From assembly GCA_963575745.1 (NCBI GenBank), contig CAUYUJ010000181.1:434001-498000 (forward strand): a stretch of 64,000 nt of DNA, in the 5' to 3' direction. The stretch is from Prorocentrum cordatum (taxonomy: Eukaryota). Under the pieces are notes generated by a model. It saw only the letters and a list, made by a program, of their open reading frames with translations. It was not told the DNA's origin and did no database searches. The translations under genes were made by a program, and so were the position numbers. Each line of letters starts with the position of its first letter. The stretch's first letter is position 1. Positions 1,059 through 51,864 of the stretch are shown here, in pieces.

Positions 1059-1170
1059 CCTGGCTTCGAGCGAGTGAGTGCCGGGGAGCAGACCGCCGTC
1101 TGCCACGGGGGTCCTCTGATAGCTCGCCCAGTAGCCAGGCTCGTGCAGAGTCTCCTCCAGCTCGCCCAGC
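1059..1170 (-). CDS. Exon (LGELEETLHEPGYWASYQRTPVADGGLLPGTHSLEAR); gene probably continues beyond the window start
   Basis: CCCAG|G acceptor in the correct phase and a complex peptide. Donor is either AG|GA at 1114 or about 1059. No stop codon reached. Confidence 0.62.
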
Positions 1171-1899
1171 CTGGGCACCGCAGCGCAGGGGGGGGGGGGG
1201 CAGCCTGCACGCAGGCTCCAGAGCGCCTCTAGCAGACTCGGGGAGGACGAGGGAGAGGAAGAGAAGGAGAGGGGAGGAGAAGAGGGCGAAGGAGAAACAC
1301 CCATATGGCATTGCTATTCGTTTCCTTGCCCCGTTTTTTTTTTGTTTCTCTCTCTCTATACATATATATGTCCCCCACTCACTCTCTGCACATAATACTA
1401 TATATCTGTATGTCTCGGAAGCCAGGGGGTGAGATCGCAGTGAAACGGAGAGCCCACCACGGGGAGATCGGTTTCGGTTTCGTGTTCGTGTTCGTGTCGT
1501 GCGTGCGGGCGAGGCGAAGCTGCGTGGGCGAACGAGAGGCATGCACCCGCGCTGCTGGGGCGAAGCCGGGCTCAATGGTTCCCCTCCCCCTGCTGGCCGC
1601 CGGTGGCTCGGGGGTGTAACGACGGTGTTCCGTGGCGCGGTGTCCATAGGGGCCCCTGGTGTCCCGTGGCGGGGTGTCCCGTGGTGTCCCATGAGGTCGA
1701 TTGTGAGATCGATCGTGAGATGGACAATGGGATCTATAGCGAGCAGCCCAATCGACAGATGACACCAGCCCTCTGGGCGTAGGTGGTCTAACGAGCTTCG
1801 TCTTCTCTCCGCCCGAACCCCTCCTTCCCCTGCTCGGGGGAGGGGTGTTTCCCTCCTCCTCCCCCCTCCCCTGGGTCTGGGAGGGGGGTGCGCGGGTAG

Positions 1900-2470
1900 T
1901 TAGAGCGACCAAGACGGCCCAAGAAGACTCCAAGAGGGCCTCAGGAAGCCCAAGATGGCCTGCAAGATTGCTCAAGATACCTCAAGATGGTTCAAGATAG
2001 CCTCCGACACACATCCAAGAGGCCTGTAGATGGCCCCAAGACGGTTTCAAGTGCCCTCCGAGCCCTCCAATGACCCCCCCTAAATCTCTCAAACATCTAC
2101 GGACATCTATGTTGTTTGCCTTCTCGCCTTCTCGCTCCCTATGGGCTCTTCATGCCTCAAGATGGCCCTAAGACGGCCCAAGAGCCCCACGAAGGGCCCA
2201 AGAGGGCCCTAAGAGCGCCCCAAGAGGGCCTCAAGAGATCATTTTTGAGCCTCCATGGGGGGGGGGATTTACCCCCCCACATACCCTTTTTGAGACATGG
2301 GGCCCAAAACGACCCCAAGAGGCTCCCCAGGCCCCCCCAAAGAGCCCCAAGAGGGCCCCTAGACCCCCCAAAAGAATCCCAAGGGGGCTCAATAGTGTCC
2401 CAAGTGGCTCCGCGAGGACACCAAGAGCGACCCACGACGTCTCCAGCAGACCTCCGAGAAAACACTTCCA
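1900..2470 (+). repeat. Degenerate GGCCCCAAGA-type minisatellite element. Related tracts at 1-135 and 6780-7150 (+), and 35125-35430, 43440-43570, 57955-58135 (-)
   Basis: Recurrent CCCAAGA/CTCAAGA motifs at about 11-bp spacing. Confidence 0.8.
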
Positions 2471-2843
2471 AGGCGGCTGTTGAACTGCATGCGTCTGCAT
2501 TTCCCTGATCAAGGCAACTCGCCTGGCGATTTGTTTCTGGATGGGCTGGTGGGGGACGCGAAGCGTCAATAATTTTGTTGTGAGATCGACAGTGGGGTCG
2601 ATTGTGTGATCGATATCGATCACGATGTCGATATCGATCGGTAGATCGAGAATGAGGCCGACAGATAGGTTGCAAAACAAGTGGTCCGTGGTGCCCAAGG
2701 AGTTTCTGCCGAATCCGATCCGATCCAGATCGCACACCCAAAACTGACCCCCCCCCCATACAATCTTCTTGTCACCCGAAATGTGGTCGTTCAGGTGTGT
2801 GTATATACACATATCTATATGCGCATATATATATATACATATC

Positions 2844-2874
<31 letters not shown>

Positions 2875-3670
2875 GTGTTAGCCGGCGTGGACCATGAACG
2901 CAATGTTTCTAGCATTCTCTCTACCGTGCAATCTATGTGGGGCAATCTAGCCTTCTCTGTTGTGCAATCCGGCGCAATATACGCGATGCAATCTGCGTTG
3001 TGCAGCTCACCCTGCCGAGCTTGAAGTTGACAACTCCACTGCTTGCGCAATCATCGCATCCACACACCCGCAATTTGGTTTGCAAAAGCCATGCGGCGGC
3101 GATTGCGATGCCTGCTTCGCGCTGGCTGCCACATCGCTGCGGCCGTTCTCAGGGGCGGGACCTGAGGATCCTTACCCTCCTGCTCTGACCCTTCCTCATC
3201 TTATAGATACGCACACACCACACCCCCCTTCCTTTCTCCTTTCCTTCCTCCTTACATGTACGCACACACCACAACCGCACTCTCGTTTCTCCTTCCTTTC
3301 TCCTCCTCTGGCTCCTCTCCCTCTTCCACGTACGTCTCCACTCCCTCCCCAACCAACGTTTCCTCCTACCTCCCTCCCCAACCACCCAGACTATCGAACA
3401 GCCGTAAGGTCCGCTGGGAGGACCCCTGAGTCCTCCTCCTCCTCCTCCTCCTCCTCCTCCTCATCATCATCATCATCATCATGATCTGTATTATAATATC
3501 TATCCTTATCCTTCATCCTCGTCCTCCTCCTCCTCATCACCAATGTCATCATCATGATCATGATGATGATAACGATGATCATCATCATCATCATCATCAT
3601 CATCAGCGTCTATATCATCATCAGCTGCATCATCATCATCATCATCATCATCAGCACCATCATCTTCATC

Positions 3671-3716
<46 letters not shown>

Positions 3717-3934
3717 CCATCATGAGCATCATCATCATCATCATCATCAGCAGCATCATCATCATCATCATCATCATCGCCGTCGTCTTCATCATCATCT
3801 TCATCATTGTCATCCTCATCATCAACATCATCAGCAGCACAATAAATAACACCATTATAATTACCACGATATTAATTATCAGACGTCCGTCCTCCTTCTC
3901 CTCCTTTCCCTCCTCCCCGCATCCCGGGTCGAAC

Positions 3935-4002
3935 CTCACTGTCAGCTCGCAAGCGGACCAGGCGCGCGTCTCCCGCGCCCGCGGCGGCGGCCAGGGGGCC
4001 GC
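3935..4002 (-). CDS. Exon (AAPWPPPRARETRAWSACELTV)
   Basis: GAG|G acceptor, AG|GT donor (phase 2). In-frame join to 1170 gives CELTV-R-LGELEETLHEPG. Confidence 0.6.
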
Positions 4003-4074
4003 CTCGTGGGGCCAGGGAGACAAGGATGCAGGGGGGCTCCCCCACCCGAAATCCTCCTTTTCCTCCCCTCCCCC

Positions 4075-4652: not shown

Positions 4653-4683
<31 letters not shown>

Positions 4684-5039: not shown

Positions 5040-5229
5040 ATAGGGGAACAAAAAGTGGCATAAGCATAAAAACTCGGAGGTCCGCGCGGATTTCTCGGAT
5101 CGGCGCTGGGGCCCCCGGCGGCGCCTCCGGCGCCGCCCCTGGCGCGCTCCGCGCGGGGTCCAGCGCCGATCCGAGAAATTCGCGCGGACCTCCGAGTTTA
5201 TATGTTTATGTCTTTTTTCGTTCCCCTAT
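5040..5229. mobile_element. Family A foldback/MITE-like element (best copy). Other copies at about 728-930, 13940-14135, 15945-16110, 22522-22690, 27980-28185, 39200-39390, 44360-44560, 46560-46740, 49345-49550
   Basis: About 70-bp inverted arms (ATAGGGGAAC..CATAAAAACTCGGAGGTCCGCGCGGATTTCTCGGATCGGCGCTGG and its reverse complement ending GTTCCCCTAT) around a GC core. TA at both ends; non-coding. Confidence 0.85.
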
Positions 5230-8560: not shown

Positions 8561-8691
8561 CTCCGTGCGAGCCGCTCGCCCCGCCGCGCCGCCGTCGCCG
8601 AGGAGCCCGAGCCGCCGGAGCGCCCGCGCGGCGTGGTGGCCGCCCAGGTGCTGCAGGCGCAGGGCCGCGGCGAACCGAGGAGGAGAGGGGG
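8561..8691 (-). CDS. Exon (..RFAAALRLQHLGGHHAARALRRLGLLGDGGAAGRAARTE); 5' boundary uncertain
   Basis: Protein-like, GC3-rich frame. Donor GAG|GC in phase 0 joins the 4002 exon. The acceptor is ambiguous (AG at 8693-8692 or an internal CAG). Confidence 0.6.
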
Positions 8692-9369
8692 CTACTCTGT
8701 AAGGACGGTTTTTTGAAGGCAGATCTGCCTTCAAAGAGGAAAGACTGGTCTACTCTGTAAGAGCGGTTTTTTGAAGGCAGATCTGTCTTCACTGTAAGAA
8801 CGGTTTTTTGAAGGCAGATCTGCCTTCAAAAAACCGTTCTTGCAAGGGTCACGCAGCCGGGGAAAAACTTAGAACAAAATCACCCAGACGACCATCGGGA
8901 ATGATTTGCAGACGGCAGCGCTCAAATGGGATCGTTAATTGATGTTCGCCATTCAGTGTTGGCAGCGTGCGCAGGCTTGCACCATGGACCAGGTCATTGA
9001 TATGCCGCACTTCGGCTTGCGCGCCCAGTGGCAACCTTGAGAGGCGGACGCCACTTAATGCCCAGGTGCTCTTCCAAGTGAATCCTTCACAAGGCCGCTG
9101 GCGTGAGTGGTTCCACGTTCTGCTTTGCGGTTTCGGTCCCACCAATCGGATGGCTAACATGCAACGCGCAATGCAGACGAGACGTTAGCTCGGTAACCTT
9201 GACAGGCGGATGTCACTTGATGCGACGGGCCGCGCCTGGTTTGATTCAGCATCTTTTCGGCTTCGATCCCTGTGCCACTTTTGTTATAAGCTGTTCACGG
9301 GGATGGGTGAATCTGCCTAAGTACTGGGTTTCCGCGCGATTTCCCTCTCGTCTTTTAGCGTGCCGCCCT

Positions 9370-9782: not shown

Positions 9783-10112
9783 TGTCCAACGATACGTGTT
9801 GACGATACGGCGAAGGGCGGGGTCTATGATGTAAATTCACACACGGGGTGCAGTTTAGGTTGCCCAACAATCCCACTTAACGATCGGGCGGGTGCGGGCT
9901 TAGTGACGTGCTAAAATTCATACACGGAGCGCGTTTCGCGTAAAGTGGCGTGCCCCGGCGTGTCCACTTTACGATTTGTTCCCAACCATCCTGTGGTGTT
10001 GGGTCCTCGTTTTGAAAAGACGGTGCCCCGCGTTCCTCCTCCTTCCTCCCGCTGCCCCCTCCCTCCTCCCTCCCCCTTGCCTCTGCCCTTCGCATGTCTC
10101 TGTTTCGGCACA

Positions 10113-11107
10113 TCCCTCACGCGTTCCGTGGCCCCATAGGGAGCTCCACCGAAGGCCCCAGTGACAGGGTCCGCATGGCGGCCCCGCATTTTGGCGCACC
10201 CCTCACACGGTTCGTGGCCCCATAGGAAGCTCCACCGAAGGCCCCAGTAGCAGGGTCCGCATGGCGGCCCCGCATTTTGGCGCACCCCTCACACGGTTCG
10301 TGGCCCCATAAGGAGCTCCACCGAAGGCCCCAGTGGCAGGGTCCGCATGGCGGCCCCGCATTTTGGCCCGCCCCTCACACGGTTCGTGGCCCCATAGGGA
10401 GCTCCACCGACAGGGTCCGCATGGCGGCCCCGCATTTTGGCGCAACCCTCACACGGTTCGTGGCCCCATAGGGAGCTCCACCGAAGGCCCCAGTGGCAGG
10501 GGCCGCATGGCGGCCCCGCATTTTGGCGCACCCCTCACACGGTTCGTGGCCCCATAGGGAGCTCCACCGAAGGCCCCAGTGGCAGGGTCCGCATGGCGGC
10601 CCCGCATTTTGGCGCACCCCTCACACGGTTCGTGGCCCCATAGGGAGCTCCACCGAAGGCCCCAGTGGCAGGGTCCGCATGGCGGCCCCGCATTTTGGCG
10701 CACCCCTCACACGGTTCGTGGCCCCATAGGGAGCTCCACCGAAGGCCCCAGTGGCAGGGTCCGCATGGCGGCCCCGCATTTTGGCGCACCCCTCACACGG
10801 TTCGTGGCCCCATAGGGAGCTCCACCGAAGGCCCCAGTGGCAGGGTCCGCATGGCGGCCCCGCATTTTGGCGCACCCCTCACACGGTTCGTGGCCCCATA
10901 GGGAGCTCCACCGAAGGCCCCAGTGGCAGGGTCCGCATGGCGGCCCCGCCCCATTTTGGCGCCCCACCCCTCACACGGCTCGTCACACGGCCGTGGCCCC
11001 ATAGGGAGCTCCACCGAAGGCCCCAGTGGCAGGGTCCGCATGGCGGCCCCGCCCCATTTTGGCGCACCCCTCACACGATTCGTGGCCCCATAGGGAGCTC
11101 CGCCGAA
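10113..11107 (+). repeat. 86-bp tandem satellite, about 11.5 copies
   Basis: Unit CCCTCACACGGTTCGTGGCCCCATAGGGAGCTCCACCGAAGGCCCCAGTGGCAGGGTCCGCATGGCGGCCCCGCATTTTGGCGCAC. Central copies are identical and edge copies diverged; one unit has a 12-bp deletion near 10410. Confidence 0.95.
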
Positions 11108-14100
11108 GATGATGCCCACAATTGCGGTACTAACAATTGCTCATGGTTGGGTCTTTCGCCAGGCTATTTTTTTGTTCCGCGTTTGGTGCGTGGAAAAAAT
11201 GGCAAACATCCATCGCATGGTGGGACATGTGTTATACTTTCTGTTTAAGATAACATTCTTCCTTTTAAAATTCAAACAGTTCCACTTTACGATTGATGCT
11301 TCCCGTCCTATTGTTTCATTCACTTGACGCGGAAAAGCCATATCGTATAGTGGGCACGCCGGGGCACGCCACTTTACGCGAAGTGCGCCCCTGGTGAGAT
11401 TTTACACGCTAAACCTGCCACCGCCCGATCGTTAAGTGGGGTCCCTGGGCAACGGGAAATGCGCCCCGCAAATGAACTTACACAGTGAGCCTGAACCCGT
11501 CCACGTCCAATTGTTAAGTAATTTCGCCAGACATCGAAAATTTGCCGCCACGAGCGGATTTTCGCAGCGAGCACGCTTCCGCCCAATATGGAGTTGCGTC
11601 CTACAGCGACGGGTGGGTCCTGGGCCCCAGGCCCAGAACGCAGCCGTTATTGCCAGGAACGGCGGGCGACGACGACGACGACCACGGCGACGTCGACGAC
11701 GACGACGATGACGACCACGACAGCGGTGATGACGACGACGACGACCACGACGACGACGGCGACCACGGCGACCAGGACGAAAACGACATGCGTTCTCGTC
11801 ACATCGCTGGCAATTGCTTAGCTCTCGCTCCTCCGCCGAAACACCATCAGCATCCTCACTCGCCTCTTCCTTCTCATCCTCCTGCTCCTCCCCCCTCCTC
11901 CTTTTCCTTCTCTTCGCATCAACATGTTCTTTTCCCTCGCGTTCCCCCTAGCCTCCCAGCGAAGCCACAACAGACCACGGCAGCCGTCCGGGTACCTTTT
12001 TTGTATCAGCGACCGCGCGCTTCCCATTCCATCTGCCCGAGCGGCAGAGGTTGCCGACGCTACAAGGCCATTGCCGCCAGAACGATTGGAACACGCCCAA
12101 GCAGGTTCGACATCCACACAGCCGGGGATCAAATTATAACAAAGTCATCAAGGCGATCATCGTGAATGATTTGCAGACGGCAACGCCCAAATGGGATCAT
12201 TCAGCGATGTTCGCCATTCAATGTTGGCAGCGTGTGCAGGCTTGTACCATGGGCCAGGTCATTGATCGCACTTTGGCTTGCGCGCCCAGTGGCCGGGGGC
12301 GCAAGCCACTCGCACCTGCCCAGCGGACTCCTCGCCGAGGAAACCCTGCGGACCGGTGAGAACCACGTCCTCCTCCTCCACGACGGCGTCGAACGCTCCG
12401 AAATCGACGCAATCTAGCACCGCAGCGGTCGCCAACTCGCCAGGAACATCGGCTTGGCAAAAGCCTCCTCGACGGAGATGAGCGGCAGCAGCTGCGATGA
12501 CATGCGGTGCCGTAGGACGCCAGCACCAACCAGAAGGCTGAAAAGAGATGGAAGGTGGTACCAATTCCTTGGCGACCGGCTTCACGCGACCTCCAGCCCC
12601 GAACGTGACAGGCTCCACGACGCAGATCTCCACAGATGTGTCCAAGCCCGTCACCTCTCCAGGCCGCTGCCCCTTGGCCGCGGCACGCAGCTCCGAAGGC
12701 GACGCCGTGGACTCTCTCCTCCAGGGCACGGCGCACGGGCGTGAAGCGCGACGTTGCGCCTGAGGCGATCCAACCACGGCGGCACCCGACCAGCGGCCCG
12801 ATGCTGCAGCGCCGGGATGCCCGCCGCGATGCGGTCCGCGAGCGCGGCGTCGCCCGCCAGGGCCGAAAGGGCAGACTCGGCGAGCTCGAGCCGCGCCTCC
12901 AGCTGCTTCCGCTCGAGCCGCGGATCGGCTGCCGCTACTCGCCGCTAATCCGCCAACAGTTTGGCCAAGACAGGCTTCCATCAACAACGAACGTAAGCGA
13001 TCACGACGGCCGCCCATGCGACGGCCGCCCATGCGACGGCACGGCCCATGACATCCTGTCGAGCTGCGCGAGCTCGAGCCGAGCTCGAGCAACTCGACAC
13101 GGCGTTCCGAACAGCACAAGCGGCAGCCTCCCGAGCACGTGCACGACGGGCCCTCCGCGCCGCCGACGCCGACTCCCAGACGCCCTCGGAAAAGGGCGCC
13201 TCCCGCAGCCGCCATGCTCGCACCGCCCGACGGGCCAGGGGGTTCGAGCCAGCATGCGCCAACATGGCCACGGACCTACTCTAGGAGGGAGAGGGAGGTC
13301 AGAGAAGGGGGGAGGAGGAGGAGGAGGAGGAGAAGGATTAACGGGACGGGGGAGGAGTTGAGAAAGGGGTAGGGAAGGAAAGAGAGAGGAGGGGGGAGGA
13401 GGGAGTAAGGCAAGGAAGGGGGGAGGGAGAGGAGCTGGAGGAGGATATCCTCGATGATCGACGATCCTACTCGATCCTCGATGCTCCTCCATCTCCGTCA
13501 TGGGAAGGAGCCGCTCCAGCTTCCGCAGAGCCTTCCTCCTTCGGCGGCGTGCGAGGAGGGCCAGACTGGGGAGGCGGCCCTCTGAGAACGCGGCCTGGAA
13601 AGGAGCGCTCCTCCTCCTGCTCTTCCTCCTCCTCCTCCCCTCCTCCTCCTCCTCCTCCTCCCTCCGCCCCCTCCTCCTCCTCCTCCTCCTCCTCCTCCTC
13701 CTCCTCCTTCTCAACCTCCTCCTCCTCCTCCTCCTCCTCCTCCTCCTCCTCCTCCTCCTGACCATCATCATCATCCGCCTTCCTTCTTCCTCCTCCTCGA
13801 TCCTCGAGGATGACGGTTGTTGCACGGTTCCGAACCTTCCTGGTCCTGGAGGGCCTCGGGTGACCTCCGTTGACGACCATGCCCCGCCATCCCCCCCGAC
13901 CACACACACAAACACACCTCTGGGAGGCGGGGGGGGCTTCTTTAGAAGAAGAACAACTTGCATAAACATAAACTTTCGACGGTCTGCGCGGATTTCTTGG
14001 ATCTCTGCTAGACCCCCCTCCCTCGCGCGCGGAGCGCGCCAGGGGCGGTGCCGGAGGCGCCGCCCCGGGGGGCCCAACGCGGGTCCAAGAAACCCGCGCG

Positions 14101-15764: not shown

Positions 15765-15940
15765 GCCAGTCCACAAGAGGCCTCCCACAGGGAAGCCCAA
15801 CCCCCTGAGGCCCCAGGACGTCCACCGGTTCTTGGTGTGGGCACGTCGCGCTCTCCACGGCACGGCCATCGAGACCCAGGAAACCCAGGGCACCCTGGAG
15901 GCAAGCAGCGTGTTCCTTGGTATGGGCCCCCACTGTAGAG
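15765..15940. repeat. Family G dispersed repeat; inverted copy at 22345-22525, interrupted copy at 39438-39560 plus 39785-39822
   Basis: Shared CCACAAG..CC.TCCACA.GAA.CCCA...GACGTCC...GGT(G)TGGG..CGTC...CCATCGA.ACCCA.GAA.CCCA.GGCA..CTGGAGGCA.GC. Confidence 0.75.
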
Positions 15941-16897: not shown

Positions 16898-16941
16898 CTG
16901 CTCTCGGCGCTCTCGGCCGCGGCCACGTCTTGCAGCAGCGC
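16898..16941 (-). CDS. Candidate short exon (ALLQDVAAAESAES in phase 0; frame not fixed)
   Basis: GAG|G acceptor, CAG|GA donor. Unique GC-rich island enclosed by an inverted pair of family-I repeats, as is the 47.1 kb exon. Confidence 0.38.
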
Positions 16942-20850: not shown

Positions 20851-23590
20851 TCCAGTCTCGCAGCTGCTCGTCCACGGCCCTGGGCCGTCACGCGCCAAAG
20901 AGGAGCAGGAGGACTGGAGAGCCTCCCTCTCCATCCCCTCTCGCACCCCGAGGCGGGTCGGTGGGCGGGGGGGGGGGGAAGGGGGCAAGGCTTTTCGCCC
21001 GAGATTTCTGTTGTTCCCATCGTACTCAAGGACCACATCCCAGAAAAACAAGTTCGAGCACCTGGAGGAGTATGGAAACGGTGTCGAAGGAGTATCGCAT
21101 GCCAGGGCCCGACACGTGAAAACAAACCGTCTAGTTTCGGTATTTTCTTGGTGTTCGAATTTCTTTCTGGTGGCCAAGGCTTAACTAGGTTGGGACATCA
21201 CAACCCGAGACGTCCTCCCTATGAATGATCTTGAAGCTTGGAAGTTGCAGCAGCTTCACTGATCGAGGGCGGGTCCTTCTCAAAATGTGGCGCTCGCCTC
21301 ATCGCCGCGCACATTCGTCGTAAAAGCTTGCAAGAGCTTCACGGATGGAGGACGGGCGGCTTTCAACATGCGGCTCTCGCCTTCGAGCCGCGCACATTCG
21401 TCTTAACAGTTTGCAGGGGTTTTACAGATGGAGGGCAGCGCACGTTCAAGATGTGGCTCTCGCCGTTGCGCCACGCAGATTCGTCGCAACGGTTTCACAT
21501 CAGCGTCATCGACTATTGTGGCTGACGTCCCGGAACTCATGTTTTGGAACGATTTGGGATTGGCAGGGCGCGGCAGTCACGTTGATTCGCGGTGCTGACG
21601 TTCCAGGAACGGCGTTCTGGCACGATGTAGGGTCGTCAGATGGCAACAAGAGAGCTGATTCGCGGCGTCGAAGCCCCGGGAACGGTGGTTTGGCACGGCT
21701 GAAGATGTTCAGACGGTCGTCTTCCAACGGGGCTCTTCCCGCGGTGCAAACAGATCCTTATATGAGCCTGTGAAGAGGGAACTTGGAGGGGTGGTGTATT
21801 GCAACATCGTTGATGGGTCTTCGGTTTGCACTGGTCCTCCTCCTCCTCCTCCTCCTCCTCCTCCTCCTCCTCCTCCTCCTCCTCCTCATCGTCACCATTA
21901 TCCTCCTCCCTCGCCTTCCCTGCTCTTGTCCACCCTTCCTCCCTCTCTCCCCCCTCCCTCCCCCCTTCCTCCCTCCCCCCTTCCTCCCTCCCCCCATCCT
22001 CCTGTCTAGTCGTTTTGAATGTTCTGCTAGCTGCAGCGCTGGGCCGGCAGGCCGACAGCTGACAGGCCATCGGCTTCCACAGCTTCGCAATCCCAAATCC
22101 GCGCCTCACCGACTCTCCCCCCCCCTCCTTCTCCTCCCTCCCCCCCATTCTCCTCTCTCCGTCCTCTGCTCCAGGCGAGGACTGAGGGAAGGGAGAAGAC
22201 ACCCCCAGGCGTGCACCCACCTCCCAGCAAACAGATCGAGACCGCTGGCTTGGCACCGCGATATCTTTTGGCCCTCCCGAGCACCACCGCCGGCTCGTAC
22301 ACCGCGTCGCGGAACGCTGCAGCGGCCTCTGTGGAAGAAGAACTGCGTACAATGGGGGCCCATGCCAAGGAACACCCCGCTTGCCTCCAGTTTGCCATGG
22401 GTTTCTTGGGTTTCGATGGTTTTGCTATGGAAAGCGAGACGTTCCCACACCAAGAACCAACGGACGTCCGGGGGGCTCAGGGCTGGGTTTCTTGTGGAAG
22501 GTTCATTGTGGACTGGACTCCACTGTAAACATGAACTGTCGGAGGACCAGGCGGATTCCTTTGATCGGCGCTGGTTGCCCCTCCCCCTGGCGCGCGGAGC
22601 ATGCCAGGAGCAGCGCCGCAGGCGCCGCTAAAGGGGGCCCAGCGCAGATCCAAGAGATCCGTGCGGACCTCCCGAAGTTGATGCTTACGTTAGCGGCGAG
22701 CGCGGGGGGAAACGAGAAGGGGCGGGCCTTCTCAGAAGGCTCGGAAGTCCCCCGGGCCTTCCGAGAAGTGTCCTAAGCCTCCCCCGAAGGCCAACAACAA
22801 ACTCCTCGGAAGGCGCGAGAACCTCTGAGCAGTCCCGCCGCCTTCTGAGAAGGCCCTCTCCTGCTCACTCACCCCGCCTTCGCTCGCCGCCGATTGCGGT
22901 CGGGAGCTGCTGCATCGAGTGTCGCGGAGGCGGCCCCGGCGACAAAGCTGTGCCCTGCAAGCGGACAGCGTGCCGCTCCTCCCCTCGGGGTGGGCGGCCG
23001 GGAGCCGCGCGGGGCCGGGAGGCCTGCGGGCGATCACGCGGACCGCGCGCCGCGCCGAAGCGTGGAGGGCCACCACGGGCGCGCTCCACGACTCGAGACA
23101 CACGACCCGTCACATCGAGGCGCGCATGCGTGTTTCGTTTCAGGCGTCTGCGAGTACACCCTGCGAAATGCTTAAGAAATCATGGGTTAAGAAATTCATA
23201 GTCTCAGAATTTGAATAAAAACTCCAAATTTCTACCAACTTTGTAGGATTTACATTGAAACATTAAGAATAAGCGAGACTCTGGCCGAAAATTTTAGTTT
23301 TCTTAAGCATCGCCTAAGGTGTAGGCACTTTGCGAGCAGTGGCGCGCGCTCGGCGAGAAAGCCAACCTTCCCGACCGTGTTTGCCGTTCCCAGACCCCCG
23401 GCGCCGTGAATATTTCGTGACGTGGACCCCCAACAGTTTGCACCCCTTCCACGGGACCGGTTCTTCGTCCCGAATCGTTCCTTGACGGTCCCGAGGATCG
23501 GTAAGGGGCCCCCAGGGGCCGAAAACAGCAAAACATGCCCCGTCCTGTTGGCCTAACTCGAGGGGGTCTGGGTCGTTTCCCCTTCGATGC

Positions 23591-23780
23591 CTCGTGGCGT
23601 GGCGAGCCAGGCGCCGCGGGCGTCGCGCCGGGCGAGGCCAGGGCCTCGGCCAGCTCGGCCCAGTTCTCGCCGCGGTCCTCCTCGCACAGGGGCGAGCTCG
23701 CGTGCGCCAGGAACTGCCGCGCGAGCGAGGCGAGCGCGCGGTCCTCGGAGAACCCCGCGTTCGCGAGCGCCCAGAGCATC
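23591..23780 (-). CDS. Exon of helical-repeat gene (MLWALANAGFSEDRALASLARQFLAHASSPLCEEDRGENWAELAEALASPG...)
   Basis: Acceptor CCCCAG|G in the correct phase; repeat motif MLWALANAG. The 3' boundary (GAG|GC at 23591) is less certain. Confidence 0.78.
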
Positions 23781-25242: not shown

Positions 25243-25277
<35 letters not shown>

Positions 25278-27769: not shown

Positions 27770-27900
27770 CTCGCGCTGTCGCGCGGCGAGAGGTCCCCGC
27801 GCCGCTCGGCCTCCGCCGCCAGCGCGCCGAAGAGCGCCTCGTCGCGGCTGCCCAGCGCCGCGGCGGCCCACGCCAGCCCCGCCAGCTTGCCCGAGGCGAC
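27770..27900 (-). CDS. Exon of helical-repeat gene (VASGKLAGLAWAAAALGSRDEALFGALAAEAERRGDLSPRDSA)
   Basis: Clear repeat unit LAGLAWAAAALG..DEALF.ALA. Acceptor GAG|G, donor AG|GA (phase 2); joins the 23780 exon as LSPRDSA-R-MLWALA. Confidence 0.8.
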
Positions 27901-28459: not shown

Positions 28460-28499
28460 CTCGCGCGCGCCCGGCGCGGCCCGGGACAGCACGCCGCTC
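28460..28499 (-). CDS. Candidate 40-bp exon (SGVLSRAAPGARE)
   Basis: GAG|G acceptor and GAG|GC donor. It bridges the phase between the 32.7 kb and 27.9 kb exons (ALCR-SGVLSRAAPGARE-VASGKL). Confidence 0.45.
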
Positions 28500-32680: not shown

Positions 32681-32793
32681 CGGCAGAGCGCCTCCCCGCA
32701 GGCGCCCAGGGTGGCGTGCGCCCAGGCCACGTCCGAGACGGCCGCTGCGGGGGGGTCTGGCCCGCAGCGCGCCAGGAACTGGGCCGTGAGGGC
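32681..32793 (-). CDS. Exon of helical-repeat gene (ALTAQFLARCGPDPPAAAVSDVAWAHATLGACGEALC)
   Basis: Acceptor CCCAG|G. SDVAWAHATLG matches the S-x-x-x-W-A-x-A-x-L-G repeat motif. Donor is either GAG|GC (32692) or CG|GA (32681). Confidence 0.72.
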
Positions 32794-35731: not shown

Positions 35732-37242
35732 ACTTAAGGATCTCCTCTGGCACGTTTTCGGGCGTCTTGGGTGTTTTTGGGGTCTCGCGGGGCCGTCCGG
35801 CCTCTCTCCGGACCGACCCGGGCCCAATTTCGAGGCCCAACAGGCAGTGACGTCCAGGAGGGCCAAGAAGCCGAGGAGACGCCCTGCAGGAATGCTCAGA
35901 CGGCAAGGCCGCCGACGGCGCCGATGCTGGTGATGACGATGGCGACGATGCTGCCCATGCGTAGGAAAGGAAGGTGACCAGTTGATGATGGCCCCAGTGG
36001 CGACGACTGCCAGTTACGATGACGGCGATCAAGCGATGTCGCTGATGAGGGTGATGCTGAGGAAGTGCGCGCGTGCAGAAATTCGAAGCTCTGACAAGCG
36101 TGAATTGAACACCGCTTGCTTTGTATATGTTTTTGAAGGGCTCCATTTTGAGATGCTTCGGGAGCCAATGGGTTGCAAGGGATTTCAAGACGCGCGCGTG
36201 GCGGCGCGCGCGCTCGCGCGACCCGCATTGCATTATCTGGCACGGATTCGCGCACTGGGCGCACGCCAGATCAACACAACTGGGCAGGCATTTCTTGCAG
36301 TGAGCACACATACTTGTAGGTAGATCTACACGGCGTCTGCATACACAACGAAATACCTAGGTAAACGCCAAGATACACGACAAACGAACGGAAGGGTAAC
36401 TATCCCACTGTTGTTCACTCGTGTTCGAATCTGCGGACGACCTTGAACACCCAGCGGCATATCCAATCTCTCCATCATCTCTCCATGGGCCACCTCATTA
36501 TCGCAGTATCGCTCCCATTCCCACCATGAACGTCATTGCGTACTCATCTGTATGAGACCTCGGGGCGCAAGGAGAGGTCATGCCTGAACTAAACCCAGGT
36601 TGTCGTAGCGCAAAGTCGCAACCGACATCATCATGTCCGCAGCATCCTGCGGCCTGAACTGGTCCGCTCGCCTCATTGACTCTGCGCCGAGCAAGTCCAG
36701 GAACCTGAAGAGAAGGAGAGATCAAAGACGGCGGAAAAGGAAAAACCAAGAAAAGGATAACGACAGAAGGACAACGGGAAGAAAATGGCAGGGTGAAGGG
36801 GCGTGAGGCAGACGGGGGCACATGCGACACCGAGGAGGCAGAACGATTCCACCGCCTCCTTACCGACTGGAAGACCTCCAATACCTCAACCCCATCCTCG
36901 TCCTCTTCCTTGATGTCCTCTTTCATTCTCGGCATCCATCCCTTTTTCTGCTCCTCCTCTTACTCAAATATTCATCCTCCTGCGCGTTGCACAACTCCCC
37001 GCGGCTACCACACAGACCACCCGTCAGGCGATGAGGAGGCAAAGGGGGGGAATTGAAACCACTCGTGGTTTGCATTCGGCGCGCAGTTCAACTCACTGTT
37101 ACACACGGATCTGTATACCAACACAGAGACGCATGTGTGTGCATATACAAATGCATGCCGATAAGTCTTTAAACCTACCATACGTCTGGACGTTGACGCT
37201 TGGGGACTGGGAGGCTTTGAAAGGCTGGGGACGTTGATTCTT

Positions 37243-39939: not shown

Positions 39940-40019
39940 CTCTCGTCCCAGTGCCGGAGGTCGGCCAAAGCGCGCGCGGCCCTCGAGAGGTGGTGGGGCG
40001 CCACGTCCCCGATCCTCTC
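39940..40019 (-). CDS. Exon of helical-repeat gene (ERIGDVAPHHLSRAARALADLRHWDE)
   Basis: Acceptor CCGCAG|G, donor AG|GC (phase 2). The peptide has the P-x-x-L-S-x-x-x-x-A-L-A-x-L repeat pattern. The link to the 32.8 kb exon is unresolved; a small exon is probably missed. Confidence 0.75.
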
Positions 40020-41188: not shown

Positions 41189-41225
<37 letters not shown>

Positions 41226-43340: not shown

Positions 43341-44583
43341 CTCCCCCGTCCAAGGGGGGATTATTCCATGCACCTGGGGGCTGTTTTGCCCATATCTCTC
43401 GTCCGAAACTGTTTTGCGAACGCCTGTGACGAATACTCGGGGCCTCATTTGGCCCGGCTTGGGGCGCCCGCGGAAATTTATTGGCGCCTCTTCGGGGCCC
43501 GGGTGGAGCCTCTGCAAGAGCCTTTTCGGAACCCTCCTGGGGCCGCCAGGAAGCCCTCCAGAGGCGATGCCGAAAGAAGGGCACCACTCTTGAGTTAAAA
43601 GAAAAGAAGTATCGACCCGAACCGACGTTGATGTAGGGGGTCGGTTTGTGGCGCCAAGGCACGCGCGCCATTCCCGAGCAAAGAGCGAAGGACTAACAAG
43701 CGGGAGCGCTGATCTTGTTGAGGGGCTAGTCTTCGGCGGGGAGCAAGGGCTCCACTCTTGAGTTAAATTGTAGGGAAATATCGAGCGGGAGAGCCGCTGT
43801 TGTAGAGGGACCTGTTTGCGGACATAAAGCGCAACTGCCACTCTTGAGTTAACGGGCGAAGAACGGTATAAAATAAACTTTTTCGCTGTCGGGGGCGCCT
43901 GTCCCTGGGCGGCTGGAAAGTTTATACCCTTTATGGTTGCACCGTAGGGGTATAAACTTTCCAGCCGCCCAAGGACAGGCGCCCCCGACAGCGAAGAAGT
44001 GTATTTTATACCGTTCTTCGCTCGCTGATTGAGTACCTACCGATCGGGAGCGAGCATTTTTTTTCGAGCGCCGATTCTTGGCGGCGAGCAAGAACGCCAG
44101 TCTTGAGTAAAAAGCGAGGGGGTATCGAGTGAACGCCGCTCCCAGCAAAAAGTGTTGAAGTGATTATGGAGCGGGAGCCCTGTTGTTGTTTGGGGCGGGC
44201 GCAGAACGCTTGAGCGTGAGCCTCCACTTCAAAGTGCATGCATCCAGCATCCAGGCGATAGCGCCAGAGCGGATAGAGGGGGACCAGCAGTCAGAATCTC
44301 AGTGGACGAATTGACAAACAACAGACAGCAAACACCAAACAAGCCCGATCAACTCTGATAATAGAGGAACAAAAAGTGGCATAAACATGAAAACTCGGAG
44401 GTCCGCGCGGATTTCTCGGATCGGCGCTGGGGCCCCCCGGCGGCGCCTCCGGCGCCGCCCTTGGCGCGCTCCGCGCGCCAGGGAGGGGGGTCCAGCGCCG
44501 ATCCGAGAAATCTGTGCGGACCTCCGAGTGTTTATGCTTATGTCACTTCTTGCTCCCCTGGATGAATCTGCTCCGCAGGTCGC

Positions 44584-44687
44584 CTGCAGCTCGCCGAACA
44601 GACCCTGCACCAGCGGCGAGAGCGAGCCGCCGCGCGTGCCGGCGGTGGAGTACGGCACGGCGGCGCACGCGAGGATCACGAGCTCCT
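44584..44687 (-). CDS. Exon of helical-repeat gene (ELVILACAAVPYSTAGTRGGSLSPLVQGLFGELQ)
   Basis: Acceptor CCCCAG| at 44687 (or GAG|G at 44685). Donor CAG|GC in phase 0; joins the next exon as FGELQ-ERIGDVAP. Confidence 0.72.
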
Positions 44688-49310: not shown

Positions 49311-49730
49311 GAGAGAATGTGCAGCATTGAACATGTTTTTGCATAAAAACAAAACAAAAATAGGCATAAACTTCTGGCGCTCCGTGCGGATTTCGTGGAT
49401 CTGCGCTGGAACCCCCTGCGCGGAGCACGCCAGGCCGCCAGAGGCGGCGCCAGAGGCGCCGCCTGGGGGCCGCCTGGGGGCCCCAGCGCAGATCCACGAA
49501 ATCCACGCGGAGCGCCAAAAGTTTATGTTCATGGTGTTTTTGTTCCTTCCTCGACGTGGAAAACGTAAATGAGGACTGATCAGGAAGCGGCTGCCTTGGG
49601 CCACTCTCGAGGCGGCCCGCCGCGGAACACAACACTGCTCGGCGCGAAGCCCGCATCTCTGGTGCTCAGGCCGCGGAGGAGGCTGTTGCCGCTCTGGCCT
49701 CCCCCCGTACGTCGTCGGCCTCGTCGTCGT

Positions 49731-49762
<32 letters not shown>

Positions 49763-50860
49763 GCGGCGTCGTCGTCTCGTGTTCCTCGCGCTCCCATCGT
49801 GGCCGCACTGTGTGGCACGTCCCACGTCATGAGAGCAAGCGTGGTCTCGGCTGCTTGAGCCGCGCAGGCAGCGTTCTGCCGCAGCTCGGCCCTCGTGCCT
49901 CACGCCGGCCTGAGGGAATCGGGCTGCAGTTCTGCCGGGGGGGTGGGCGCATGAACTCATAGCTAGCAGCACCATGACGATTGAGGGGCCCGGTTGTGGG
50001 ACGTGCGGTTTCTGTTCTGCTGATCTTCGGGCTGAGCTGCCCTGGTCGTGTTCCAAGCCCCTGCGTGATAACGAGGAGAGAGTACCTAGCGTATCAGTGA
50101 TCGGTTTTCTCCGAATGCCAGAGATATGCTGTGAATGCAGTGCCCTTTAGTTTTGATCTTTCTTATGACACCGTCATGTTGCTATTCCTATTCCTATTCC
50201 TGACATTCACCTCCGCATCTCTCTCCCATTCCTCCTTCTCCTCCTTCTCCTCCTCTTCCACCTCCTCCTCCTCCTCCTCCTACAACTCCTCACCCTCCTC
50301 ATCACCATCACCCTCACCACTTCTTCCCCCTTCCCCCCACCTCCGCATCCATGACCATGACCCATCGCATCCCCCTCCTCGCTCGCCCCCTCCCCTCCCG
50401 TGCTCCGCCCCCCGAGGCCTTCTGGGAGGCACCCTCTGGCCCGAGCTGGGGCCCCCCGCCGCGAGGCAGTGCTGGGCCGTGCCGCCCTGCCCGCATCCCT
50501 CGACCCGCTCCCCTAATTGCTCTCCGCATCCCGGCCCTTCGGGGGCGCCCTCGTCGCTGCGCTCTGGCAGGGCGCGGCTCGCACGGCTGCCCCGGGTTCG
50601 CCCCCGTCCTCCGCCCCCTTCCTCGCACGACGCCGCCGCCGCCGGCGTGCTCCGCCCCCCCCCCTCCCAAAAAAAGAAGCAAGCGCGAGGAGCCGCGAAA
50701 ACCCGCACCGACCCCGACAAAACACTTCCACGCCGCGGCCCGCCGGCTCCGCCTGGGCCGACGTGCCCACCGCCGCTCGACGCTCGACGCTCGACGATCG
50801 ACGCCGACGACGGCGACCTCCGCTGGCACGGCCACGCTGCAGCTGCGGGCAGGCCCGGTC

Positions 50861-50954
50861 CTCCTCGAGCCAGCCCACCCGGCCGCCGTCGGGGCGCAGC
50901 CGGGAGAGCCCTCCGAGGGTGTGCGCGAGGGCGGCTGGGGAGAGGTCCTTGTGC
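50861..50954 (-). CDS. Exon of helical-repeat gene (HKDLSPAALAHTLGGLSRLRPDGGRVGWLEE)
   Basis: Acceptor TGTCAG|G, phase-compatible with the previous exon (VSH-R-HKDLSPAALAHTL). Probable donor GAG|GA at 50861; alternative downstream donors exist. Confidence 0.75.
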
Positions 50955-51139
50955 CTGACAGGGGGGCCCCAGGGCCGGGGGGGGGACGGAGCGCGAGGGA
51001 GGGAGGCACGGGGGAGCGTGGGGGAAGGCAGCAGAACGGGGGGACGGAGGATCGAGGAGAGGCGGGGGGGAGGACGAGGCGAGGCTTTGACGGAGCAGGG
51101 AGGGACGGATGGAGGGGAGGATGAGAGGGGGGAGGGCGC

Positions 51140-51864
51140 CTGTGCGAGACGTGGGGCAGCAGCGCGGCCAGGGCGCGCTCTCTCCGCCGCCGCAGCCGCC
51201 CCATGGCCCACACCAGGCTCGCCAGGCACTCGGGGCGCAGCCGGGCCCCGCGGTCCGCGGCCTCGTGCAGTACGGCGTCCGCGGCCCCGCTGCCGCGCAT
51301 GCGGGCCGTCGCGGCCGCGCACACGACCCGCACCAGGGCCCGCGTCCCGAACGCGGCGGCCCTGGCGGCCGCAGCCTCCGCCACGGCCTCGACGACCTCG
51401 GGGCGCCCGAGCCGCGCGAACGCCTGCGCGAGCAGGGCGGCCTCTGGCGCTCCGAGCGTCGGGGCCGCACCCGCGGCGCCCGCCGCGACCGTGCTGGCGG
51501 CCGGCGAGCCGCTCAGGGACATGGCGCCCAGCGCGGCCGCCAGCCGCGCCAGGTCCTCGGCGGCCACGCTCCCGACCCTGTCCAGCAGCGCCCCGAGCTC
51601 CGCGGGCGGCGCGGCCCGGGCGTCCCAGGTGAAGCCCAGCTCCGCCGCCCGCCCCAGGCAGTCCGCGACGCCGCGGCCCTCGAGCTGCCGCGGGCTGGAC
51701 CGCACCGCGCCCCAGAGCTGCTCCAGGGTCGCGGGCGCCCGGGCGCCCCAGGGCGGCGCGGCGCGGGCAGCAGGCGCGGGAGGGCCGCGGCACGCGGGAG
51801 CCCAGCCCGAGGGGTCGAGGGGCGGGTCGGGGATCGAAGGGGGGGGTCGGGGATCTAGCGTCAT
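51140..51864 (-). CDS. Large 5' exon of a helical-repeat (OPR/RAP/RESC6-like) protein gene; 5' boundary uncertain
   Basis: Non-repetitive, GC3-rich frame ...LGAPEAALLAQAFARLGRPEVVEAVAEAAAARAAAFGTRALVRVVCAAATARMRG...LRPECLASLVWAMGRLRRRRERALAALLPHVSH. Ends CACAG|GC (phase 2) at 51140. The ATG at 51864 may or may not be the start. Confidence 0.8.

What the first reader, a model, noticed from the sequence alone, without database searches (positions are those of the whole stretch)
1059..51864. Cryptic gene of at least 50 kb encoding an OPR/RAP-like helical-repeat protein, assembled from tiny exons
Seen: about a dozen unique GC-rich islands on the minus strand splice in frame at AG|G-type junctions. 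Examples are VSH-R-HKDLSPAALAHTL, GWLEE-LSSCLL..LPP-Q-ELVILA, FGELQ-ERIGDVAPHHLSRAA, LSPRDSA-R-MLWALA and CELTV-R-LGELEE. Junctions often fall inside repeat motifs and restore them, which chance joins would not do. Only about 3-4% of the span is coding. Known: OPR/RAP/FASTK/RESC6-type repeats bind RNA, mostly in organelles. Inference: an organellar RNA-binding protein. The joins at 39.9-32.8 kb and 23.6-8.7 kb remain unresolved.
Basis: partly seen in the sequence, partly recalled or inferred. Interest (0 to 1): 0.75.

Follow-up and report, generated by a model that had tools for sequence, protein, structure and literature searches.

The report
Dinoflagellate helical-repeat gene, deaminase-family ortholog
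The islands are real exons of an ordinary, already annotated long-intron dinoflagellate gene for a helical-repeat protein, and its relatives in other dinoflagellates end in a deaminase-like domain, which makes the family a candidate RNA-editing factor.

Summary
On the minus strand at least 15 small, GC3-rich exons (about 2.0 kb of coding sequence in 50.8 kb, 4%) join in frame at GC/GA/GT...AG|G splice sites. Twelve of them match, letter for letter, a public gene model: CAK0789142.1 of Prorocentrum cordatum, which UniRef names 'FAST kinase leucine-rich domain-containing protein'. So the gene is not cryptic. Its architecture is typical for this genome, where the mean intron is 4.7 kb and 75% of donors are GC or GA. 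The true exon 3 lies at 46156-46097.

The protein folds as an alpha-solenoid. Its closest solved structures are trypanosome RESC chains and mitoribosomal helical-repeat proteins, and its sequence relatives are FAST_1/RAP proteins.

New here: full-length orthologues (about 850 aa) carry a C-terminal HAE...PCxxC domain with a deaminase fold. The window's exons follow these orthologues colinearly up to just before that domain and then run off the window's low edge. The public model stops early, at 16.9 kb.

The gene is therefore probably a helical-repeat-plus-deaminase protein. It resembles PPR-DYW editing factors in architecture but is not homologous to them. No transcript from this species was examined. 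Neither the deaminase exons of this gene nor any enzymatic activity has been shown.

The parts
52830..52969 (-). annotated 5' exon of the public model (MAARLSAAR...); uncertain
   Evidence: Exact match to P0002 residues 1-47. The first 30 aa hold 8 basic and 0 acidic residues, like the orthologue N-termini. Its only in-frame acceptor is 51694, which skips the conserved LEQLW motif. It lies beside an RNase H-like ORF on the plus strand.
   Evidence: Profile hit of 147.5 bits, hmm 42-246. Exact match to P0002 over 51693-51139. Junction.
50861..50954 (-). exon 2 (R)HKDLSPAALAHTL...GWLEE
   Evidence: Absent from P0002. No profile hit. The orthologues read GWLEED-x-x-LRL at this point.
   Evidence: Exact match to P0002. 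Junctions GAG|GA...CAG|G and CAG|GC. tblastn match to P0019.
44584..44685 (-). exon 4 ELVILA...FGELQ
39940..40019 (-). exon 5 ERIGDVAPHHLSRAA...
36584..36704 (-). exon 6 FLDLLGAESMRRADQFRPQDAADMMM...
32681..32793 (-). exon 7 ALTAQFLARCGPDPP...
28460..28499 (-). exon 8, 40 nt
27770..27900 (-). exon 9 ...LSPRDSA(R)
23591..23780 (-). exon 10 MLWALANAGF...GRxW motif region
22285..22326 (-). exon 11 AAAFRDAVYEPAV
16898..16941 (-). exon 12 ALLQDVAAAESAES(R). The public model appears to end this exon 2 nt further on, which gives K plus a stop.
8561..8696 (-). exon 13 (inferred) ...RFAAALRLQHLGGHHAARALRRLGLLGD...
   Evidence: Profile hit of 15.3 bits, hmm 599-653. Frame-compatible CAG|GA...ACAG|A and GAG|GC junctions. 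No transcript evidence.
3935..4002 (-). exon 14 (inferred) AAPWPPPRARETRAWSACELTV
   Evidence: Profile hit of 7.0 bits. GAG|G acceptor and AG|GT donor.
1082..1170 (-). exon 15 (inferred; 3' end unverified) (R)LGELEETLHEPGYW...GGLLP. This is the last coding piece in the window.
   Evidence: Profile hit of 5.3 bits, hmm 671-705. No HAE/PCxxC-type exon was found in 1-1100.

Best explanation
This is a genuine nuclear protein-coding gene of the dinoflagellate Prorocentrum cordatum. It lies on the minus strand and has at least 15 short exons separated by introns of 0.2 to 8.2 kb, which use the lineage's usual GC/GA/GT donors and AG|G acceptors.

It encodes an alpha-solenoid of roughly 37-44-residue helix pairs. 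These are related by sequence to the FASTK/heptatricopeptide (HPR) repeat proteins of organellar RNA metabolism.

It is the P. cordatum member of a low-copy, dinoflagellate-wide family. In that family the repeat array is followed by a small C-terminal zinc-deaminase-fold domain (HAE...PCxxC) instead of a RAP nuclease domain. That domain is closest to bacterial toxin-type and AID/APOBEC-type deaminases.

The window holds the gene up to the residues just before that domain. The last exons lie beyond the window's low edge, and the public model is truncated at 16.9 kb.

Most likely mechanism (inferred): an Arg-rich presequence takes the protein into an organelle, probably the mitochondrion. The repeat array binds single-stranded RNA, and the C-terminal domain deaminates, or at least binds, a base in that RNA.

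Sub-confidences:
- real multi-exon gene: 0.97
- helical-repeat FASTK/HPR-like protein: 0.9
- this gene carries the deaminase-like exons off-window: 0.75
- active RNA deaminase: about 0.35
For: Gene and exons:
- Exact 13-piece mapping of P0002 = CAK0789142.1.
- One unique splice solution per junction.
- Nine colinear profile hits on the minus strand only, with plus-strand and reversed controls at or below 2.3 bits.
- GC3 of 0.94 against an intron GC of 0.61.
- The 15-exon join is open for 678 aa and aligns as one block, 454.9 bits over hmm 42-694. The first 12 exons alone give 404.8 bits.

Fold:
- The AF2 model has pLDDT above 90 across nearly all exon joins from residue 120 to 480.
- The top Foldseek matches are RESC-complex chains and mitoribosomal repeat proteins.

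Family:
- 109 relatives at E <= 1e-3.
- 46 of the 61 scanned carry FAST_1 and 16 carry RAP. Others carry pseudouridine synthase or methyltransferase domains in the same C-terminal position.

Deaminase domain in orthologues:
- HAE...PCxxC is present in 4 of 4 transcripts of about 850 aa.
- H, A, E, P and the first C are invariant in 6 of 6 sequences.
- The best Pfam hit is PF14424 Toxin-deaminase, followed by APOBEC-like families. All are below cut-off.
- A profile search against PDB puts APOBEC3 at E 0.005.
- The AF2 model has pLDDT 84 and the order b1-b2-a(HAE)-b3-a(PCxxC)-b4.
- All 40 Foldseek rows shown are AID/APOBEC.
- VIA-align gives DddB at Z 9.1 and PPR-DYW at Z 7.7. At least 23 of the first 25 rows are deaminases.

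Architecture:
- It is seen in independent transcript-sized contigs and in genome models from Effrenium and Symbiodinium.
Against: - No transcript of this species was examined.
- The deaminase exons of this gene are not in the window. No P. cordatum protein bearing them was found.
- The public model ends with a stop after exon 12. If that junction is transcript-based, the protein is truncated.
- No window peptide, and not P0002 itself, reaches any Pfam threshold.
- Every deaminase Pfam hit is below its gathering score. Structural scores are moderate (TM about 0.4, Z 9.1).
- In the clade nearest to P0002 in the tree (Suessiales: P0011, P0019, P0111-P0116), the second zinc cysteine is Phe, and one member reads HAD. 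These may be inactive.
- Iyer et al. 2011 judged the Perkinsus members of the best-matching clade to be inactive.
- The 5' end is unresolved.
Confidence: 0.65

Rival explanations
1. The protein is a helical-repeat RNA-binding factor whose C-terminal deaminase-like domain is catalytically dead. The domain serves only as an RNA- or protein-binding module. The protein then works like other HPR/FASTK proteins, in RNA stabilisation, processing or mitoribosome assembly, and performs no editing.
For: - The Suessiales orthologues lack the second zinc cysteine (PCLSF), and P0116 reads HAD.
- Iyer et al. 2011 predicted that the Perkinsus members of the BURPS668_1122 clade are inactive and organellar (passages seen).
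- The family appears to have about one copy per species, unlike plant PPR-DYW families.
- The closest structural matches of the repeat part include mitoribosomal proteins.
Against: - Four orthologues keep the complete HAE...PCxxC motif, and H, A, E, P and C are invariant in 6 of 6 sequences.
- In the Cys-to-Phe clade, the residue three positions after the first His changes to His (HAEH). This could replace the lost ligand, but that is my inference.
- A single-copy PPR-DYW protein is reported to support multisite editing in diplonemids (title and abstract only).
Confidence: 0.3
2. The public truncated model is the true product in P. cordatum. Splicing after exon 12 creates a stop, the protein is the 572-aa solenoid alone, and the exons at 8.7, 4.0 and 1.1 kb are untranslated or decaying remnants.
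For: - P0002 ends ...AESRK.
- Ending exon 12 two bases later and joining it to the acceptor at 8696 reproduces exactly K plus a stop.
- The annotation pipeline weights transcript-based models heavily, and 84.8% of genes have transcript support (Table 2 and methods passages).
Against: - The alternative donor CAG|GA, 2 nt upstream, fits this gene's consensus better. Nine of the other 11 donors are AG|G.
- Using it keeps three further exons in one open frame.
- Those exons have GC3 of 0.87, score 5.3 to 15.3 bits where controls stay at or below 2.3, and raise the joined alignment from 404.8 to 454.9 bits.
Confidence: 0.15
3. The deaminase-like domain acts on DNA or on free nucleotides, for example mutagenic defence against transposons or viruses, or organellar DNA editing, rather than on RNA.
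For: - The best structural matches are DNA deaminases: DddB, DddA, AID and APOBEC3.
- Krishnan et al. 2018 raise a conflict-related role for deaminase expansions in dinoflagellates (passage seen, about the DYW clade).
Against: - The domain is fused to a repeat array whose relatives are RNA-metabolism proteins. Those relatives carry RAP, pseudouridine synthase and RNA methyltransferase-type domains in the same position.
- The family is low-copy and conserved rather than expanded.
Confidence: 0.05
4. The islands are chance open frames in GC-rich DNA, or they belong to several different genes.
For: GC-rich sequence has many long stop-free frames: 680 ORFs of 60 aa or more in the window.
Against: Colinear, single-strand profile hits with clean controls, exact identity to one public protein, and high model confidence across the joins.
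Confidence: 0.01

Closest known systems
FASTK-family / RAP-domain proteins (Pfam FAST_1 PF06743, RAP PF08373)
   Same: The repeat array is homologous by sequence search. Exon 1 alone finds 109 relatives, and 46 of the 61 scanned carry FAST_1. UniRef names the locus protein 'FAST kinase leucine-rich domain-containing protein'. The layout is the same: N-terminal presequence, helical array, C-terminal effector domain.
   Different: The locus protein and its close orthologues stay below Pfam's FAST_1 cut-off. The orthologues have no RAP domain. A deaminase-fold domain takes its place.
Heptatricopeptide repeat (HPR) proteins of alveolates (Hillebrand et al. 2018, PMC6212722)
   Same: The repeats are helix pairs of about 37 residues. 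In the model, repeat starts are spaced 37, 37, 44, 43, 37 and 38 residues apart. The family is expanded in dinoflagellates, with 72-73 members in Symbiodinium minutum, and overlaps FAST_1 (passages). Toxoplasma mitoribosomal repeat proteins are among the best structural matches.
   Different: The authors' HPR motif was not run here. The passages I read describe no deaminase fusion.
Chains of the trypanosomal RESC RNA-editing substrate-binding complex (PDB 8fni, 8fn4, 8fnc)
   Same: These are the best structural matches of the solenoid: E 2.6e-9, TM 0.58 by query and 0.71 by target, over 477 columns.
   Different: Sequence identity is only 15-19%, and helical repeats match each other easily. 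The lineage is different, and U-insertion/deletion editing is a different chemistry.
Plant-type PPR-DYW editing factors
   Same: The architecture and presumed logic are the same: an RNA-binding helical-repeat array followed by a small C-terminal zinc deaminase with HxE...CxxC. A synthetic PPR-DYW structure matches the C-terminal model at Z 7.7.
   Different: There are no PPR motifs and no Pfam DYW_deaminase hit at E <= 1 in 4 of 4 orthologues. The motif is PCxSC rather than CxDCH, there is no terminal DYW, and the repeat family is different. This is an analogue, not a member.
BURPS668_1122 / SCP1.201 (DddA-like) bacterial toxin deaminase clades and their Perkinsus homologues (Iyer et al. 2011, PMC3239186)
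   Same: PF14424 is the best Pfam hit of the orthologue C-termini. The domain is short and ends soon after the PCxxC helix. DddB and DddA are among the top structural matches. Atlas feature hits point to PF14424 clusters (leads only). Perkinsus, a sister lineage of dinoflagellates, has members with transit peptides.
   Different: Scores are below Pfam's cut-off (22.2 against 29.6 bits). The motif is HAE, whereas many members of that clade have DxE. There is no toxin context, and the domain is fused to a eukaryotic repeat array.

Membership tests
FASTK family (Pfam FAST_1/FAST_2/RAP) | FAST_1 match above Pfam's gathering score | tested here: not met
   0 families for 12 window exon peptides at E <= 10 and for P0002. 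The orthologues reach only 16.5-20.7 bits against a cut-off of 27.4.
FASTK family (Pfam FAST_1/FAST_2/RAP) | Sequence homology of the repeat array to bona fide FAST_1 proteins | tested here: met
   phmmer with exon 1 hits proteins at E 1e-12 to 1e-3. Of the 61 best, 46 carry FAST_1 at E <= 1e-4.
FASTK family (Pfam FAST_1/FAST_2/RAP) | C-terminal RAP domain | tested here: not met
   No RAP hit at E <= 1 in orthologues P0004, P0007, P0009 or P0013. For the window's own gene the C-terminus is off-window.
HPR (heptatricopeptide repeat) proteins | Tandem helix-turn-helix repeats of about 37 residues | tested here: met
   The AF2 model has about 26 helices in pairs, with repeat spacing of 37-44 residues and pLDDT 81.3.
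HPR (heptatricopeptide repeat) proteins | Match to the published HPR motif; organellar localisation | not tested
   No HPR profile or targeting predictor was available. The N-termini of 5 of 7 full-length orthologues have 5-8 basic and 0-2 acidic residues in the first 30.
OPR (octotricopeptide repeat) proteins | 38-40-residue repeats with the OPR consensus | tested here: inconclusive
   No OPR profile was on hand. Chlamydomonas and Polytomella mitoribosomal repeat proteins match structurally at E 3e-6 to 7e-6.
PPR-DYW editing factors | PPR motifs and a DYW-type deaminase (PG box, HxE, CxDCH, terminal DYW) | tested here: not met
   No PPR or DYW_deaminase Pfam hit at E <= 1 in 4 orthologues. 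The motif is PCxSC and the C-termini differ. The resemblance is structural only, Z 7.7.
Cytidine-deaminase-like superfamily | Helix with H/CxE plus a helix with PCxxC on a b-a-b core | tested here: met
   Shown for orthologues only. The motifs are present in 4 of 4, and the AF2 topology fits. All 40 Foldseek rows shown are AID/APOBEC. VIA-align gives Z 9.1, with at least 23 of the first 25 rows being deaminases. It cannot be tested for the window's own gene because the exons are off-window.
BURPS668_1122 toxin-deaminase clade (PF14424) | Pfam PF14424 above the gathering score | tested here: not met
   Best score 22.2 bits against 29.6 (P0004). The other orthologues score 14.8-21.1 bits.

The most novel reading that the evidence does not exclude
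This family (an HPR/FASTK-like array plus a toxin-type HAE/PCxxC deaminase, at about one copy per species) is the catalytic enzyme of substitutional RNA editing in dinoflagellate mitochondria and/or plastids, whose machinery is still unidentified. It would be a second, independent invention of the 'helical-repeat guide plus deaminase' editor, alongside plant PPR-DYW. Relatives that carry pseudouridine synthase, methyltransferase or RAP domains on the same scaffold suggest that the scaffold is a general RNA-targeting chassis.
Probability: 0.3. Interest if true: 0.85.

Novelty: new variant of a known kind. Interest (0 to 1): 0.5.

Why it matters
The tiny-exon, long-intron structure is ordinary for this genome, and the locus is already annotated.

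What matters is the family. Dinoflagellate organelles edit RNA extensively, and the effector proteins 'remain poorly understood' (Klinger et al. 2018; passage seen). A 2026 review of dinoflagellate RNA-binding proteins discusses only doubtful PPR-DYW candidates and never mentions FAST or heptatricopeptide proteins.

A conserved helical-repeat protein with an apparently intact deaminase centre gives that open question a concrete gene to test. It would also show convergent evolution of programmable RNA deaminases.

The case also shows that the public P. cordatum model is probably truncated by a 2-nt choice of donor site.

Tried and rejected
- **Read laying.** No transcript junction could therefore be checked.
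- **Sequencing-run index.** Of 24 runs listed, 12 hold part of 50800-51900, with shares of 0.08 to 0.63. Exons make up 0.75 of that stretch. Only one run (X6, share 0.08) is on record as RNA. None was laid, so I draw no conclusion about expression.
- **Pfam on window peptides.** Nothing was found for any of 14 peptides.
- **Own genome.** None is held.
- **Search with the P0004 C-terminus.** It found only P0004 itself.
- **Profile searches with A1.** They found 9 proteins and 1 protein, none from P. cordatum.
- **JGI metagenome scan.** With P0002, 593 pattern matches were found and none encoded a relative.
- **Candidate exon at 12798-12929.** It has high GC3 on both strands but was rejected, because it has no profile hit and no Pfam hit.
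- **Alternative 5' acceptor.** I looked for an acceptor that would join the annotated 5' exon upstream of the LEQLW motif. None is in frame.
- **Window 1-1200.** No deaminase exon was found in the three minus-strand frames.
- **Earlier findings of this scan.** Nothing was returned.
- **Atlas feature search.** Only one hit reached 0.9, a eukaryotic 'hypothetical protein' cluster. The toxin-deaminase clusters scored 0.78-0.86, which makes them leads only.
- **tblastn with P0002.** It missed exon 1 and the short exons. It was replaced by exact-substring mapping.
- **First join of exons 12-15.** I entered an exon 12 end that was two bases too long. I corrected it. By accident, the wrong join reproduced the public model's terminal K plus stop.

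Full report
**What the window is.** The window is about 62% G+C, rich in trinucleotide microsatellites, and belongs to no held prokaryote genome. A search with the longest coding piece returned P0002. Exact substrings of P0002 map in 13 pieces to the minus strand. The collection lists P0002 as CAK0789142.1, 'unnamed protein product [Prorocentrum cordatum]', on a contig of 666,656 bp. UniRef names it 'FAST kinase leucine-rich domain-containing protein'. The locus is therefore a publicly annotated dinoflagellate gene, not a cryptic one.

**Check of the observation.** For each of the 12 junctions of P0002 I enumerated every split that reproduces the protein. Exactly one split per junction has a G[T/C/A] donor and an AG acceptor. 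Donors are GC x7, GA x4 and GT x1, and 11 of 12 acceptors are followed by G.

The confirmed exons are:

| Exon | Coordinates |
|---|---|
| 1 | 51864/51693-51140 |
| 2 | 50954-50861 |
| 3 | 46156-46097 |
| 4 | 44685-44584 |
| 5 | 40019-39940 |
| 6 | 36704-36584 |
| 7 | 32793-32681 |
| 8 | 28499-28460 |
| 9 | 27900-27770 |
| 10 | 23780-23591 |
| 11 | 22326-22285 |
| 12 | 16941-16898 |

Exon lengths after the first are 40-190 nt. Introns are 185-5343 nt. GC3 is 0.94 against an intron GC of 0.61.

As a test against chance, I built a profile of 814 positions from six full-length orthologues and searched all 1596 six-frame ORF pieces of 12 aa or more. Nine hits of 5.3-147.5 bits all lie on the minus strand, in strictly colinear order from 51.7 kb to 1.1 kb. 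The best plus-strand hit is 2.3 bits, and the best hit to reversed sequences is 1.7 bits.

CELTV-R-LGELEE is not in the public model. It is supported by an AG|GT...AG|G pair and by orthologues that read ...VV-R-VGELEE....

The chain GWLEE-LSSCLL...LPP-Q-ELVILA is wrong. The island at 47.1 kb has no profile hit. The real exon 3 (DCALRLVVRSLRHVSWFNPQ) matches the orthologues' GWLEED-x-x-LRL... motif.

The unresolved 39.9-32.8 kb gap holds exon 6 at 36.7 kb. The 23.6-8.7 kb gap holds exons 11 and 12.

**The 3' part and the truncated public model.** Downstream of exon 12, three further pieces match the orthologue profile: 8677-8504, 4011-3877 and 1181-1083. With the junctions CAG|GA (16898)...ACAG|A (8696), GAG|GC (8561)...GAG|G (4002) and GAG|GT (3935)...CAG|G (1170), all 15 exons form one open frame of 678 codons. 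That frame aligns to the profile as a single block of 454.9 bits (hmm 42-694). Exons 1-12 alone give 404.8 bits. GC3 of the last four exons is 0.87.

When I first entered an exon 12 end two bases too long, the join read ...AESRK plus a stop. That is exactly the C-terminus of P0002. The public model therefore probably uses the same acceptor with a donor 2 nt further on. This is my inference. These three junctions have no transcript support here.

The profile's last 110 positions, the catalytic domain described below, have no counterpart in window 1-1100. The gene runs off the low edge of the window.

**The 5' end is open.** The annotated first exon (52969-52830) is Arg-rich, like the orthologues' N-termini: 8 basic and 0 acidic residues in the first 30 aa. 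However, the annotated exon can join in frame only at 51694, which skips the conserved L-x-E-L-W motif that is encoded in frame just upstream.

**Is the architecture unusual?** It is not. Table 2 of Dougan et al. 2023 (passages read) gives the following for P. cordatum: mean gene length 24.5 kb, 11.7 exons per gene, mean intron 4709 bp, donors GT 24.7%, GC 51.4% and GA 23.8%, and AGG acceptors 79.7%. This gene is about twice the mean length and is otherwise typical.

**What the protein is.** AlphaFold2 on P0002 with 11 relatives gives pLDDT 81.3 and pTM 0.73. The model has about 26 helices arranged in pairs, and confidence is above 90 over most of residues 120-480, that is, across the exon joins.

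Foldseek against the PDB ranks five chains of the trypanosomal RESC RNA-editing complexes first. The best has E 2.6e-9, with TM 0.58 by query and 0.71 by target. Toxoplasma, Chlamydomonas and Polytomella mitoribosomal repeat proteins follow. PPR10 appears only at rank 33.

By sequence, exon 1 finds 109 proteins at E <= 1e-3. Of the best 61, 46 carry Pfam FAST_1 and 16 carry RAP. Others carry PseudoU_synth_2 (2 proteins) or methyltransferase domains (2 proteins) C-terminal to the repeats.

The locus protein itself reaches no Pfam threshold. I call it FASTK/HPR-like, not a certified member.

**The new element.** The closest full-length relatives are P0004, P0007, P0009 and P0013. They are 845-874 aa long and sit on contigs of 2.6-2.9 kb, which is transcript size. 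They end in a domain of about 140 residues with invariant HAE and PC(x)SC motifs.

The evidence that this domain is a deaminase is as follows:
- **Pfam.** The best hit is PF14424 (BURPS668_1122 toxin deaminases), followed by APOBEC-like families. All are below their cut-offs.
- **Profile against PDB sequences.** The first ten rows are all APOBEC3, the best at E 0.005, aligned on the strand-PCxxC-helix segment.
- **AF2 model of the P0004 domain.** pLDDT is 84.1 and pTM 0.78. The topology is b1-b2-helix(HAE)-b3-helix(PCxxC)-b4-helix.
- **Foldseek.** All 40 rows shown are AID/APOBEC, the best at E 3e-4, with TM about 0.4.
- **VIA-align, which does not lean on Foldseek.** It gives DddB at Z 9.1, a synthetic PPR-DYW at 7.7, AID at 6.9, a T6S cytidine-deaminase toxin at 6.9 and DddA at 6.7. 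At least 23 of the first 25 rows are deaminases by title.

The same architecture recurs in genome-derived models from Effrenium voratum, Symbiodinium sp. KB8 and unnamed records. In that clade the second cysteine is Phe, and the residue three positions after the first His becomes His (HAEH...PCLSF). One member reads HAD.

A tree places all 17 family rows in one clade (100/100), apart from FAST_1+RAP outgroups. P0002 is a weakly supported sister (90/77) to the clade of Polarella plus the Cys-to-Phe group. The tool flagged the composition of P0002 as deviant. Which motif state P. cordatum has is therefore unknown.

**Mechanism.** The following is shown:
- the exon chain;
- the solenoid fold;
- homology to FAST_1/RAP proteins;
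- the deaminase fold and motif in orthologues.

The following is inferred:
- that this gene continues into such a domain (about 0.75);
- organellar, probably mitochondrial, import through an Arg-rich presequence;
- RNA binding by the array;
- base deamination (about 0.35).

The logic matches PPR-DYW editing factors, but both modules are of different origin.

**Prior knowledge.** These are the papers I consulted and what I saw of each:
- Iyer et al. 2011 list Perkinsus members of the BURPS668_1122 clade as 'apparently inactive', with transit peptides (passages).
- Krishnan et al. 2018 note an expansion of the DYW clade in dinoflagellates (passage).
- Hillebrand et al. 2018 count 72-73 HPR proteins in S. 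minutum and speculate about editing. The passages I read show no deaminase fusion.
- The 2026 review of dinoflagellate RNA-binding proteins has no occurrence of 'FAST' or 'heptatricopeptide'.
- Klinger et al. 2018 state that the editing effectors remain poorly understood (passage).

Searches of the held library found no description of such a fusion. 'dinoflagellate' + 'FAST kinase' + 'deaminase' returned 0 papers. 'heptatricopeptide' + 'deaminase' returned 7 papers, none of which describes such a fusion by title or abstract. The broader searches were also negative. Subscription-journal papers and supplementary tables were not seen and may hold it.

**Limits.** No RNA evidence from this species could be obtained. 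Neither the JGI scan nor the protein searches recovered a P. cordatum sequence with the C-terminal domain.

**Verdict.** This is a real gene with ordinary architecture that is already annotated, though probably truncated. Its value lies in membership of an apparently undescribed family that combines helical repeats with a deaminase.

Noticed in passing
window 53242-53784 (+), with flanking high-GC3 ORF pieces at 52944-53235 and 54219-54452 (+): An RNase H ORF (Pfam PF00075, E 5.6e-8, 33.5 bits against a cut-off of 25.8). It is probably a retroelement remnant just upstream of the gene. It reaches the outer end of the public model's first exon on the opposite strand (plus-strand ORF piece from 52944, exon up to 52969).
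   Followed up: partly
window 733-916, 5042-5125, 13944-14132, 15931-16103, 22599-22697, 27976-28173, 39193-39379, 44363-44550, 49443-49541: A dispersed element of about 200 nt, seen as repeat families D14 and D15 with 8 and 7 copies at 61-81% identity to the reference copies. All but the first copy lie inside the introns mapped here, and one starts 34 nt after the donor of exon 4. It may be one of the introner or MITE-like elements reported for this genome, but terminal repeats were not checked.
   Followed up: no
window 10103-11108: A tandem array with an 86-bp unit, about 11 copies at 92-94% match, inside the intron between exons 12 and 13.
   Followed up: no
window 35509-35731 and 58332-58559: Two copies of a 113-bp tandem dimer, 97% alike, that is internally palindromic (GGGTAACTCGGG / CCCGAGTTACCC motifs). 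One lies in an intron and one lies outside the gene.
   Followed up: no
window 3461-3833, 24994-25539, 28593-28908, 52022-52644, 54686-55746 and others: Very long trinucleotide microsatellites (TCA/ATC, CCT/AGG) fill much of the introns and flanks. They create hundreds of spurious long ORFs of poly-Ser, Glu, Arg, Leu, Ile or Met.
   Followed up: no
relatives P0039, P0040, P0030, P0048, P0018, P0020 (not in the window): The same FAST_1-type repeat scaffold is fused in other proteins to pseudouridine synthase, methyltransferase, peptidase U32 or RRM domains. This suggests a modular repertoire of 'RNA-targeting array plus effector' proteins.
   Followed up: no
orthologues P0011, P0019, P0111-P0116: In these orthologues the second zinc cysteine is Phe (PCLSF), and the residue three positions after the HAE histidine is His (HAEH) where the PCxxC orthologues have Arg (P0113 has PSLSF, P0116 HADH). 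This may be a swap of zinc ligand, or it may be inactivation.
   Followed up: partly
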